Shown here in pieces: positions 25,101 through 28,100 of a DNA stretch of 64,000 bases (position 1 is the stretch's first letter; each line of letters begins with the position of its first letter). The DNA is from Escherichia coli. Lineage in GTDB: Bacteria > Pseudomonadota > Gammaproteobacteria > Enterobacterales > Enterobacteriaceae. The position numbers were made by a program. The stretch is from assembly GCF_030013595.1 (NCBI RefSeq), contig NZ_CP122768.1; one strand, 5' to 3'.

Positions 25101-28100
25101 AGTGCCGAACCGGAGATAAACATACTTTGCGCCAGCGCCGCGAGGGACTCAGCTTTACCGTGACCAAACGAGTGATTATCGTCGGCAGGTTGCAGGGAAT
25201 ATCGCACCACCAGTAAATTCGTCAACGACGCGCCGATATCCACCAGCGAATCCACCAGCGCGGCGAGAATACTCACCGACCCGGTATACCACCATGCAAA
25301 AATTTTAATCAGCAATAGCAGTGAAGCCATCGCCGTTGCAGCAATCGCCGCCCGACTGACCAGCCGTCCATAAGATTGATTCATAAATACTCCCGCTATC
25401 AACTGACGCTAGTATAACGGAAGCAAATCATCTGCAATGCATTAAGCAGCAGGCAAATTGAGGATAAAAAAAAACCCCACATCATGTGGGGGAAGACAGG
25501 GATGGTGTCTATGGCAAGGAAAACAGGGTTTACTACTGGGAACGTGAGTTGCTACTACTCAATAGCTTCAACGATGAACTTTTTTGCCATTGCGTCACGT
25601 CACGCAACTGCTCCATTCGTTGTTGATGTTTCTCATTTAAAACCGCTTGCTGCTCCGGCGTTAACAGGCGATACATTTGGTTGCGGACTTTTGCCATCTC
25701 AACCTGACGAGCAATTTGCTCATTCGCCATTTTTTCTGCCTGTGCGCGCACAGCGTTTTCATCGAAATTTTCTGCGGTGACAAGGCGATGCATTGTCTCC
25801 AGTTCGCTAACATTAACAGGAGGCTGTTCGTGCCGGGCCTGTTGCATAAGATCTCGCATCTGCTGACGCTGATGTTCGGTTAAACTTATGCCGTCGAACA
25901 TATGGCTCTGCGTACTGCGCTGCGTAAGTTCTTCACCCGGATGCCAGTTATCGACTGAACCGACTTCAGCAGCGTGGCTTAATGAACTGACTGCCAGCGT
26001 TGAGGCCATGACGGCAGCGGTAACTATGCGCATCATTTGCTCCCAAAATCTTTCTGTCGCGATTCAACGATAGAGAGTTTACGATTCAGGCTGCAAACAT
26101 GCGTCAGGGGGTGTAAAACAACGTAAAGTCATGGATTAGCGACGTCTGATGACGTAATTTCTGCCTCGGAGGTATTTAAACAATGAATAAAATCCTGTTA
26201 GTTGATGATGACCGAGAGCTGACTTCCCTATTAAAGGAGCTGCTCGAGATGGAAGGCTTCAACGTGATTGTTGCCCACGATGGGGAACAGGCGCTTGATC
26301 TTCTGGACGACAGCATTGATTTACTTTTGCTTGACGTAATGATGCCGAAGAAAAATGGTATCGACACATTAAAAGCACTTCGCCAGACACACCAGACGCC
26401 TGTCATTATGTTGACGGCGCGCGGCAGTGAACTTGATCGCGTTCTCGGCCTTGAGCTGGGCGCAGATGACTATCTCCCGAAACCGTTTAATGATCGTGAG
26501 CTGGTGGCACGTATTCGCGCGATCCTGCGCCGTTCGCACTGGAGCGAGCAACAACAAAACAACGACAACGGTTCACCGACACTGGAAGTTGATGCCTTAG
26601 TGCTGAATCCAGGCCGTCAGGAAGCCAGCTTCGACGGGCAAACGCTGGAGTTAACCGGCACTGAGTTTACCCTGCTCTATTTGCTGGCACAGCATCTGGG
26701 TCAGGTAGTTTCCCGTGAACATTTAAGCCAGGAAGTGCTGGGCAAACGCCTGACGCCTTTCGACCGCGCTATCGATATGCACATTTCCAACCTGCGTCGT
26801 AAACTGCCGGATCGTAAAGATGGTCACCCGTGGTTTAAAACCTTGCGTGGTCGCGGCTATCTGATGGTTTCTGCTTCATGATAGGCAGCTTAACCGCGCG
26901 CATCTTCGCCATCTTCTGGCTGACGCTGGCGCTGGTGTTGATGTTGGTTTTGATGTTACCCAAGCTCGATTCACGCCAGATGACCGAGCTTCTGGATAGC
27001 GAACAGCGTCAGGGGCTGATGATTGAGCAGCATGTTGAAGCGGAGCTGGCGAACGATCCGCCCAACGATTTAATGTGGTGGCGGCGTCTGTTCCGGGCGA
27101 TTGATAAGTGGGCACCGCCAGGACAGCGTTTGTTATTGGTGACCACCGAAGGCCGCGTGATCGGCGCTGAACGCAGCGAAATGCAGATCATTCGTAACTT
27201 TATTGGTCAGGCCGATAACGCCGATCATCCGCAGAAGAAAAAGTATGGGCGCGTGGAACTGGTCGGTCCGTTCTCCGTGCGTGATGGCGAAGATAATTAC
27301 CAACTTTATCTGATTCGTCCGGCCAGCAGTTCTCAATCCGATTTCATTAACTTACTGTTTGACCGCCCGTTATTACTGCTGATTGTCACCATGTTGGTCA
27401 GTACGCCGCTGCTGTTGTGGTTGGCCTGGAGTCTGGCAAAACCGGCGCGTAAGCTGAAAAACGCTGCCGATGAAGTTGCCCAGGGAAACTTACGCCAGCA
27501 CCCGGAACTGGAAGCGGGGCCACAGGAATTCCTTGCCGCCGGTGCCAGTTTTAACCAGATGGTCACCGCGCTGGAGCGCATGATGACCTCTCAGCAGCGT
27601 CTACTTTCTGATATCTCTCACGAACTGCGCACCCCGCTGACGCGTCTGCAACTGGGTACGGCGTTACTGCGCCGTCGTAGCGGTGAAAGCAAGGAACTGG
27701 AGCGTATTGAAACCGAAGCGCAACGTCTGGACAGCATGATCAACGATCTGTTGGTGATGTCACGTAATCAGCAGAAAAATGCGCTGGTTAGCGAGACCAT
27801 CAAAGCCAACCAGTTGTGGAGTGAAGTGCTGGATAACGCGGCGTTCGAAGCCGAGCAGATGGGCAAGTCGTTGACGGTTAACTTCCCGCCTGGGCCGTGG
27901 CCGCTGTACGGCAACCCGAACGCCCTGGAGAGTGCGCTGGAAAACATTGTTCGTAATGCTCTGCGTTATTCCCATACGAAGATTGAAGTGGGCTTTGCGG
28001 TAGATAAAGACGGTATCACCATTACGGTGGACGACGATGGTCCTGGCGTTAGCCCGGAAGATCGCGAACAGATTTTCCGTCCGTTCTATCGGACCGATGA

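What the first reader, a model, noticed from the sequence alone, without database searches (positions are those of the whole stretch)
25466..25524. CpxQ small RNA embedded in the cpxP 3' UTR
The sequence immediately after the cpxP stop reproduces, as far as I recall it, the ~58-nt CpxQ sRNA including its terminator hairpin and U-tract. An ORF-centred annotation would miss this regulatory RNA.
Basis: partly seen in the sequence, partly recalled or inferred. Interest (0 to 1): 0.3.

Follow-up and report, generated by a model that had tools for sequence, protein, structure and literature searches.

The report
CpxQ small RNA after cpxP

Summary
Confirmed and already known. The window is E. coli chromosome. 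cpxP lies on the minus strand (25533..26033). The 58 nt at 25523..25466 (minus) match the curated K-12 ncRNA cpxQ (b4716) at 56/58 positions. Both differences are in the terminator hairpin: a loop base, and the last stem pair (7 bp and 9 U here, 8 bp and 8 U in K-12). Nucleotides 1-41, which include the target-pairing sequence, are identical.

In 120 genomes from about 45 genera of Enterobacterales, the core sits directly after a cpxP homologue in all 115 loci with enough upstream DNA. Positions the search pattern left free are nearly invariant, although CpxP falls to 41% identity. The terminator stem varies with compensatory changes. The pairing block fits validated targets: cfa G-135 pairs with C11, and the skp Shine-Dalgarno region is covered.

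Two side findings:
- Rfam has no CpxQ family. Its Hrs1 family (RF02628) is the Erwinia orthologue, apparently modelled on the wrong strand.
- CpxQ nt 15-58 plus 3 nt form the 47-nt attachment core of Wphi-type P2-like phages. This window holds the empty site.

Processing, Hfq binding and expression were not testable here.

The parts
25533..26033 (-). cpxP coding sequence, the parental mRNA of CpxQ, ending in tandem stops UAG UAA
   Evidence: ORF list. 100% coverage and >=95% identity in 5425 E. coli genomes, annotated there as cpxP. K-12 annotation.
26113..26127 (+). Perfect CpxR-box consensus GTAAA-N5-GTAAA in the cpxR-cpxP intergenic region, about 80-94 nt upstream of the cpxP start. Presumed to drive Cpx-dependent transcription of cpxP and CpxQ.
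   Evidence: The only zero-mismatch match in the 64-kb window. Sequence. Its function is inferred from established knowledge of the cpxP promoter.
25524..25532 (-). Spacer UAAACCCUG between the stop codon and the CpxQ 5' end. Together with the following U-run it forms the conserved CCCUG|UUUU context of the published RNase E processing site.
   Evidence: CCCTG followed by 3-6 T precedes the core in most of the 121 sequences compared. RNase E processing is taken from the literature (PMC9438474). Cleavage was not tested here.
25466..25523 (-). CpxQ sRNA, 58 nt as annotated in K-12
   Evidence: 56/58 identity to b4716. Covariance model built from 79 orthologues plus the window sequence itself scores 92.8 bits, so this score is partly by construction.
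25510..25520 (-). 5' pairing block, nt 4-14 (CCUUGCCAUAG), single-stranded in the predicted fold. It contains C11.
   Evidence: Invariant in all aligned orthologues. Pairs with cfa -135..-128 with C11:G-135, and with skp -17..-7. The C11G/G135C compensatory test is published (PMC6755755).
25494..25510 (-). Predicted small stem-loop (AGACA / CCAUCCC / UGUCU), nt 14-30, carrying the second invariant block
   Evidence: MFE fold. All five pairs are invariant, so covariation neither supports nor refutes the stem. The spacer left free by the search pattern is identical in 114/121 sequences.
25466..25491 (-). Rho-independent terminator: 7-bp stem CCCCACA/UGUGGGG, loop UGA, and 9 U (25474..25466). This is the expected Hfq-binding 3' module.
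   Evidence: Terminator scan. Stem energy -11.4 vs -14.4 kcal/mol in K-12. 41 distinct stem sequences all fold. 3 of 8 pairs show compensatory changes in 79 cells, and 0 of 500 shuffles reach the score.
25463..25509 (-). 47-nt core shared with attP of Wphi-type P2-like phages (CpxQ nt 15-58 plus AUC). This is an unoccupied attB in the window.
   Evidence: 46/47 identity to Wphi and 50+ other peduovirus records. attL, attR, attP and attB aligned. A complete prophage sits between CpxQ and fieF in strain EC12.
24482..25384 (-). fieF, the next gene downstream. It starts 81 nt after the CpxQ 3' end, so no insertion is present.
   Evidence: Spacing is identical to K-12 and E. albertii.

Best explanation
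This is the cpxQ gene of E. coli, a 58-nt Hfq-dependent small RNA that forms the last part of the cpxP mRNA. Under inner-membrane or periplasmic stress, phosphorylated CpxR activates the cpxP promoter. The transcript ends at the intrinsic terminator at 25491..25466. RNase E then cuts about 9 nt after the stop codon, in the conserved CCCUG|UUUU context, and releases CpxQ with a 5' monophosphate. Hfq binds the terminator and U-tail and protects the RNA. The invariant 5' sequence, and possibly the second invariant block, pairs with mRNAs such as skp, nhaB, cfa, agp, ydjN and fimA. Pairing blocks ribosome binding or promotes RNase E decay, which lowers synthesis of envelope proteins while the CpxP protein acts post-translationally. 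Shown here: identity, position, terminator, conservation pattern and complementarity to targets. Taken from the literature or inferred: transcriptional control, processing, Hfq binding and regulation.
For: - Identity: 56/58 to curated b4716, with both changes in the terminator hairpin.
- Context: same strand and the same 9-nt offset from the cpxP stop as in K-12, with the cpxA-cpxR / cpxP-fieF-pfkA arrangement.
- Terminator: detected on the minus strand.
- Cross-species context: of 120 pattern-matched genomes, all 115 with at least 160 nt of upstream DNA carry a cpxP homologue (41-98% aa identity). It ends 9-61 nt before the core, on the same strand.
- Conservation at free positions: the 9-nt spacer is identical in 114/121 sequences and the N position is T in 121/121.
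- Terminator covariation: the stem varies with compensatory changes. Covariation score is 0.18 against 0.04 in shuffles (0/500 reach it), and slid controls are at most 0.027.
- Target pairing: nt 4-11 pair with cfa -135..-128, placing C11 opposite G-135, the published compensatory pair. nt 3-13 cover the skp Shine-Dalgarno region. The long-duplex prediction also includes the nhaB +303..+315 site (its exact base register, including U7:G312, was not printed).
- Promoter: the only perfect CpxR box in the window lies upstream of cpxP.
- Literature: PMC4817254, PMC9438474, PMC6755755, PMC10250213, PMC5736990.
Against: - Nothing in the sequence argues against it.
- Expression, RNase E cleavage and Hfq binding in this strain were not and could not be tested.
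- The terminator stem is one G-C pair shorter than in most E. coli (-11.4 vs -14.4 kcal/mol), which could alter termination efficiency or RNA stability.
- The cross-species set was collected with a pattern that required 21 core bases. It therefore shows how the RNA looks where it is present, not how often cpxP lacks it.
- Whole-seed duplex energies against nhaB, skp and cpxP were not better than shuffled seeds. The short-seed results are modest, with p about 0.01-0.04.
Confidence: 0.96

Rival explanations
1. The stretch is only the 3' UTR and intrinsic terminator of cpxP. It has no trans-acting role in this strain, for example because the weaker 7-bp terminator allele destabilises the fragment.
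For: The terminator is real and is one pair shorter than the common allele. No expression data are available here.
Against: The 35 nt upstream of the hairpin are sequence-invariant across about 45 genera, while CpxP diverges to 41% identity and the hairpin itself varies freely with compensation. That is the pattern of a sequence-specific pairing function, not of a terminator. Seven-base-pair stems are common among orthologues. The same allele occurs in 282 E. coli records. Function is experimentally established in K-12 and Salmonella.
Confidence: 0.02
2. CpxQ is made from its own promoter inside cpxP, like the DapZ or MicL type of 3' UTR sRNA, rather than by RNase E processing.
For: Not excluded by sequence alone. 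Promoter scans are insensitive.
Against: No sigma-70-like site was found on either strand in 25200..26300. The literature reports processing from the cpxP transcript, loss of CpxQ when the conserved RNase E site is mutated, and a natural 5' monophosphate (PMC9438474; PMC10250213). The CCCUG|UUUU context is conserved.
Confidence: 0.01
3. The functional RNA is on the plus strand, as the Rfam Hrs1 (RF02628) match at 25467..25538 (+) would suggest.
For: Rfam Hrs1 matches the plus strand at 41.6 bits, E = 6e-7, and matches above gathering score in 10 Erwiniaceae loci.
Against: The model consensus starts with seven A's followed by a hairpin, which is the mirror image of an intrinsic terminator. In all 10 loci the hit lies on the strand opposite cpxP. 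The paper that defined Hrs1 places it between cpxP and fieF on the same strand as both, with a rho-independent terminator (PMC4070566). No plus-strand gene ends here. The score in the window is below the gathering threshold.
Confidence: 0.005
4. The conservation reflects the site's use as a phage attachment site, with repeated replacement by phage-borne copies, rather than an sRNA function.
For: CpxQ nt 15-58 plus 3 nt equal the Wphi-type attP core. Prophages or integrase remnants occupy the site in many genomes.
Against: nt 1-14 lie outside the att core and are just as invariant. Hosts gain nothing by conserving an attB. Phages typically choose conserved RNA genes and carry a copy so that the gene is restored, which is what attL shows. 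The terminator stem differs between genera even though it lies inside the core.
Confidence: 0.005

Closest known systems
CpxQ of E. coli K-12 (b4716) and Salmonella enterica (Chao & Vogel 2016; Grabowicz et al. 2016)
   Same: Same locus, strand relation, offset from the cpxP stop and length. nt 1-41 are identical. Same terminator architecture and same complementarity to cfa and skp.
   Different: Two substitutions relative to K-12: nt 42 is A rather than C in the loop, and nt 50 is U rather than G. Compared with the common E. coli/Salmonella allele, only nt 50 differs. That gives a 7-bp stem with 9 U instead of an 8-bp stem with 8 U.
Hrs1 of Erwinia amylovora (Zeng & Sundin 2014; Rfam RF02628)
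   Same: An Hfq-dependent RNA located between cpxP and fieF on their strand. It shares the CCUUGCCA and UCCCUGUCU blocks, so it is the Erwiniaceae orthologue of CpxQ.
   Different: The Rfam model is the reverse complement of the RNA. The window scores below the gathering threshold, at 41.6 vs 56.4 bits. Hrs1 was annotated as 74 nt and was described as restricted to the genus Erwinia.
Other RNase E-processed, Hfq-bound 3' UTR sRNAs (SroC, SdhX, NarS, MalH, processed MicL)
   Same: The same logic applies: the mRNA's own terminator serves as the Hfq-binding module, the 5' end is created by RNase E near the stop codon, and the seed is more conserved than the upstream coding sequence (PMC9438474).
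   Different: Different parental genes, seeds and regulons. CpxQ comes from a monocistronic stress mRNA and acts in the same pathway as the protein that mRNA encodes.
Phage attachment sites in small RNA and tRNA genes (P2-like phages at cyaR, Fels-2/SopEPhi at ssrA, 186 at tRNA-Ile)
   Same: The phage carries a copy of the 3' part of the RNA gene, so integration restores an intact gene at attL (PMC3448106; PMC3032704).
   Different: The Wphi site has been described as the cpxP-fieF intergenic region. The papers I could search do not name CpxQ as the target. The window carries the empty site.

Membership tests
CpxQ sRNA | Lies in the cpxP 3' UTR on the cpxP strand and begins a few nucleotides after the stop codon | tested here: met
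   The stop is at 25535..25533 and the RNA starts at 25523, after a 9-nt gap, exactly as in K-12.
CpxQ sRNA | Sequence homology to the experimentally defined CpxQ | tested here: met
   56/58 to b4716, and 57/58 to the common E. coli/Salmonella allele.
CpxQ sRNA | Intact conserved pairing sequence, including C11, complementary to validated targets | tested here: met
   nt 1-41 are identical to K-12. C11 pairs with cfa G-135, and nt 3-13 pair with the skp SD region. The cfa compensatory mutation is published in PMC6755755.
CpxQ sRNA | Rho-independent terminator with a long U-tail (Hfq-binding module) | tested here: met
   7-bp GC-rich stem plus 9 U. The stem is supported by covariation across orthologues. 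Hfq binding itself was not tested.
CpxQ sRNA | 5' end generated by RNase E cleavage of the cpxP mRNA | not testable with these tools
   The conserved CCCUG|UUUU context is present. Cleavage is known from the literature only.
CpxQ sRNA | Cpx-dependent expression through the cpxP promoter | tested here: inconclusive
   A perfect CpxR box at 26113..26127, the only one in 64 kb, lies upstream of cpxP. Six matches with at most one mismatch are not more than chance overall. No expression data are available.
CpxQ sRNA | Hfq association and repression of skp, nhaB, cfa and other targets in vivo | not testable with these tools
   Literature for K-12 and Salmonella only.
Rfam RF02628 Hrs1 | Score at or above the gathering threshold (56.4 bits) on the strand of the RNA | tested here: not met
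   41.6 bits, and on the strand opposite cpxP. The family is homologous but the model is strand-flipped.
Wphi-type peduovirus attB | Identity with the phage attP core, and prophages found at this exact junction | tested here: met
   46/47 to Wphi attP. attL, attR, attP and attB aligned. Recombination into this particular allele was not tested.

The most novel reading that the evidence does not exclude
CpxQ nt 15-58 plus 3 nt are the 47-nt attachment core of Wphi-type P2-like phages, seen here in E. coli, Salmonella, Erwinia, Serratia, Rosenbergiella and others. Lysogens keep an intact CpxQ at attL. They also gain a second, 5'-truncated copy at attR, which contains the second invariant block and the Hfq-binding terminator. 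The papers I could search call this site 'cpxP-fieF intergenic' and do not link it to CpxQ. The unexcluded novel reading is that the phage-borne or attR copy is expressed and acts as a CpxQ mimic or as a competitor for Hfq, connecting lysogeny to the envelope stress response. This does not apply to the window itself, which holds the empty site.
Probability: 0.1. Interest if true: 0.5.

Novelty: already known. Interest (0 to 1): 0.1.

Why it matters
CpxQ is the non-coding arm of the Cpx inner-membrane stress response and the standard example of a regulatory RNA cut from an mRNA 3' end. Recognising it here adds nothing new biologically. It does expose a practical annotation gap. Automatic pipelines leave the gene unannotated in nearly all E. 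coli genomes because Rfam has no CpxQ family, and the one related family (Hrs1) appears to be modelled on the wrong strand. The overlap with a phage attachment site explains why prophages are so often found between cpxP and fieF.

Tried and rejected
- Rfam at gathering thresholds found nothing at the locus. At E-value level the only meaningful hit was Hrs1 on the opposite strand.
- The promoter scan of 25200..26300 found no sigma-70-like site. This is uninformative for the CpxR-activated cpxP promoter.
- Duplex prediction with the whole 32-nt 5' part allowed long interior loops. It was no better than shuffled seeds for nhaB, skp and cpxP, so I replaced it with 16-nt seeds.
- I looked for CpxQ pairing with the cpxP 5' region, which Grabowicz et al. 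reported as needed for CpxQ to lower CpxP. No duplex was better than chance.
- MAFFT put the 3' arm of terminators with different loop lengths out of register. I built a covariance model and used its alignment for pair counts. That alignment leans towards the given structure.
- The primary paper (Chao & Vogel 2016, PMID 26805574) is not held. Its content is cited through reviews and later papers.
- I considered and rejected the readings that the plus-strand ORFs at 25484..25780 and 25486..25626 or the plus-strand Hrs1 match are real features.
- I ran no further search on the phylogenetic limit of CpxQ (Yersinia, Proteus and others).
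Full report
**Observation**

The window is E. coli chromosome. The 901 bases around the finding match 5425 of 5426 complete E. 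coli genomes at 95% identity or better, and are annotated there as cpxR, cpxP and fieF. cpxP is on the minus strand, listed as ORF 25533..26036, with the K-12 start corresponding to 26033.

Read on the minus strand, the gene ends CAG-UAG. Next come UAAACCCUG and then UUUUCCUUGCCAUAGACACCAUCCCUGUCUUCCCCCACAUGAUGUGGGGUUUUUUUUU. A consensus scan calls an intrinsic terminator on the minus strand at 25491..25475, followed by the T-run. The RNA folds into a small 5-bp hairpin plus the terminator hairpin, at -14.4 kcal/mol and z = -2.5.

Two corrections apply: it is on the minus strand, and the annotated 5' end is 25523 rather than 25524.

**Identity**

The curated MG1655 record annotates 'ncRNA cpxQ, b4716, small regulatory RNA CpxQ', 58 nt, starting 10 nt after the last base of the cpxP stop. 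The window aligns to it without gaps at 56/58.

The two differences are nt 42, a loop base (A here, C in K-12), and nt 50 (U here, G in K-12). The nt 50 change removes the outermost G-C pair. The stem is therefore 7 bp followed by 9 U, against 8 bp and 8 U in K-12. Hairpin energy is -11.4 vs -14.4 kcal/mol.

Comparison with other strains and with Salmonella shows the following:
- The loop A is the common state.
- K-12's loop C is the unusual one.
- The window's nt 50 U is a minority allele.

The exact 58-mer occurs in 282 of 5426 E. coli records, among them an O111:NM isolate (strain 14614) and a bovine isolate (strain E2863). Most other records differ by one base. Nucleotides 1-41, everything upstream of the terminator loop, are identical to K-12.

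**Cross-species evidence**

One scan of species-representative genomes used the pattern CCTTGCCA-N(6-11)-TCCCTGTCT-N-CCCC. They come from about 45 genera:
- Enterobacteriaceae
- Erwiniaceae
- Yersiniaceae (Serratia, Rahnella, Chimaeribacter)
- Hafniaceae (Hafnia, Edwardsiella)
- Pectobacteriaceae (Acerihabitans)

In every locus with at least 160 nt of upstream sequence (115 of 120), tblastn finds a cpxP homologue on the same strand, ending 9-61 nt before the core. CpxP identity to the window protein ranges from 98% down to 41%. fieF usually follows within 92-190 nt.

The pattern fixed 21 bases, so those positions say nothing. The free positions are informative:
- The spacer is TAGACACCA in 114 of 121 sequences.
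- The free N is T in all 121.
- 3-6 T's always precede the core.
- CCCTG usually precedes the T's.

The terminator behaves in the opposite way. There are 41 different sequences, and all fold into a 6-9 bp G+C-rich hairpin followed by the T-run.

On a covariance-model alignment, the terminator helix has 3 of 8 pairs with changes on both sides (79 cells) and 92% of cells paired. The covariation score is 0.18 against 0.04 in shuffles, reached by 0 of 500, and at most 0.027 when partners are slid. The alignment was fitted to the structure, which favours it somewhat. The five pairs of the small upstream hairpin never vary, so covariation neither supports nor refutes that stem.

A primary sequence frozen for about 35 nt next to a freely co-varying terminator is what a base-pairing sRNA with a structural 3' module should look like.

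One caveat applies. The set contains only genomes that match the pattern, so it does not measure how many cpxP genes lack CpxQ. Within E. coli the answer is essentially none.

**Mechanism**

The literature held here gives the following account:
- Mutating the conserved cleavage site abolishes CpxQ.
- Hfq both sharpens the cleavage and protects the product.
- CpxQ represses nhaB, skp, agp, ydjN and fimA, and also cfa (PMC9438474; PMC5736990; PMC4817254; PMC6755755).
- In E. coli, CpxQ is very stable whatever its 5' phosphorylation state, and it destabilises nhaB (PMC10250213).

I tested whether the window's RNA fits these targets, using K-12 target sequences.
- cfa: nt 4-11 pair with cfa -135..-128. 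This places C11 opposite G-135, exactly the pair validated by the compensatory mutations C11G/G135C.
- skp: nt 3-13 pair with skp -17..-7, across the Shine-Dalgarno sequence.
- nhaB: nt 1-11 can pair with nhaB -16..-6.
- Shuffled-seed fractions for these are 0.012-0.044.
- The long-duplex prediction also contains the nhaB site at +303..+315. I could not read its exact base register, including the U7:G312 wobble, from the printed output.

The only perfect CpxR-box consensus in the 64-kb window lies in the cpxR-cpxP intergenic region, at 26113..26127. No sigma-70-like promoter was found inside cpxP.

Shown here are identity, context, terminator, conservation pattern and target complementarity. 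Transcriptional control, RNase E processing, Hfq binding and regulation in this strain are inferred.

**Rivals**

- A bare terminator does not explain invariance of the upstream 35 nt.
- An independent promoter has no sequence support and contradicts the published processing data.
- A plus-strand RNA is suggested only by the Rfam Hrs1 match, which appears to be a strand error (see below).
- Conservation for the sake of a phage attachment site cannot explain nt 1-14, which lie outside the att core and are equally invariant.

**Annotation gap and Rfam**

Rfam 15 gives no gathering-level hit at the locus. With permissive thresholds, the only significant match is RF02628 Hrs1 at 25467..25538 on the plus strand, at 41.6 bits against a gathering score of 56.4, E = 6e-7.

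Hrs1 was defined in Erwinia amylovora as a 74-nt Hfq-dependent RNA lying between cpxP and fieF. It is on the same strand as both and has a rho-independent terminator. It was reported as conserved only within Erwinia (PMC4070566).

The Rfam consensus begins with seven A's followed by a hairpin, the mirror image of a terminator. In 10 Erwiniaceae loci where Hrs1 scores above threshold, the hit is always on the strand opposite cpxP and the CpxQ core. Hrs1 is therefore the Erwiniaceae orthologue of CpxQ, and the Rfam model appears to be built on the antisense strand.

This probably explains why PGAP-annotated E. coli genomes show no feature under CpxQ, in 30 of 30 sampled rows. That PGAP relies on Rfam is from my own knowledge, not tested here.

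**Phage attachment site**

The 58-mer has 6265 places in 5426 E. coli records, up to four per genome and three on plasmids.

- One 'plasmid' is a 32-kb circular P2-like phage genome. It carries CpxQ nt 17-58 about 110 nt from its integrase gene.
- In strain EC12, a complete P2-family prophage of about 29 kb lies between CpxQ and fieF. It has direct copies of the core at both ends.
- Aligning the window (empty site), attL, attR and attP shows that attL keeps a complete CpxQ. attR carries a copy that starts at nt 15.
- Sixty-two phage records carry the 47-nt core (nt 15-58 plus AUC) at 46/47 identity to the window. They include Wphi, fiAA91-ss and the Yersinia pestis-plating L-413C-like phages.
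- Ten of about 94 species-representative loci with enough downstream sequence have a homologous integrase or a fragment of one, at 57-91% aa identity. It lies 163-244 nt downstream of the core on the opposite strand.

The site is known as a Wphi/P2-like insertion point, described as 'cpxP-fieF' (PMC3032704; PMC7609406; a 2026 bioRxiv preprint on Salmonella Infantis). It has also been given as an MG1655 coordinate classed as intergenic (PMC3448106). No paper I could search connects it with CpxQ. The window has the unoccupied site.

**Verdict**

The feature is the already described CpxQ sRNA, here as a minor terminator allele. Interest is low. The two side findings, the Rfam strand error and the attB overlap, are useful for annotation but do not change what the feature is.

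Noticed in passing
window 25467-25538 (+); L019 5697-5771, L084 3532-3605 and 8 other Erwiniaceae loci: Rfam RF02628 (Hrs1) is the Erwiniaceae orthologue of CpxQ, but the model appears to be built on the reverse-complement strand. Its consensus starts with A7 plus a hairpin, and all 10 above-threshold hits lie opposite cpxP. The defining paper places Hrs1 on the cpxP strand. Rfam has no CpxQ family.
   Followed up: yes
window 25463-25509 (-); L128 10888-10947 and 40234-40301; L126 2471-2542: CpxQ nt 15-58 plus AUC is the 47-nt att core of Wphi-type P2-like phages. 62 phage records carry it. Lysogens have a full CpxQ at attL and a truncated copy at attR. About 840 extra copies occur among 5426 E. 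coli records. Ten other Enterobacterales loci have an integrase or a remnant at the same place. The searched literature calls the site the cpxP-fieF intergenic region.
   Followed up: yes
window 25474 and 25482: The window's CpxQ allele has U instead of G at nt 50, giving a terminator stem of 7 rather than 8 bp and 9 U. The exact 58-mer is in only 282 of 5426 E. coli records, including an O111:NM isolate and a bovine isolate. K-12's loop C at nt 42 is itself the unusual state.
   Followed up: partly
window 26113-26127 (+): The only perfect GTAAA-N5-GTAAA (CpxR box consensus) in the 64-kb window sits in the cpxR-cpxP intergenic region.
   Followed up: partly
L125 (K-12 nhaB), positions -16..-6 relative to the start codon: CpxQ nt 1-11 are predicted to pair with GGUAAGGGAAA at the E. 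coli nhaB translation-initiation region (-15.1 kcal/mol, shuffled-seed fraction 0.044). PMC10250213 states that the TIR site is not conserved in E. coli.
   Followed up: no
L012 5586-5644 (+), Rosenbergiella gaditana: A second partial CpxQ-model hit (38 bits) lies 2.6 kb downstream of the real CpxQ, with an integrase fragment in between. This looks like the attR of a decayed or small integrated element.
   Followed up: no
window 25530-25535 (-): cpxP ends with two in-frame stop codons in tandem, UAG UAA.
   Followed up: no
window 48639-48697 (+), 28266-28343 (+), 9511-9568 (+), 4847-4899 (-), 23220-23261 (+): Other Rfam gathering-level hits in the window: SECIS_3 (84 bits), naRNA4/REP-type element just after cpxA, the ClpQY (hslVU) promoter element, the L31 ribosomal leader, and ES036 (barely above threshold) between sbp and pfkA.
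   Followed up: no
E. coli genome collection: One of 5426 complete E. coli genomes has no match to the cpxP-CpxQ region or to the 58-mer.
   Followed up: no
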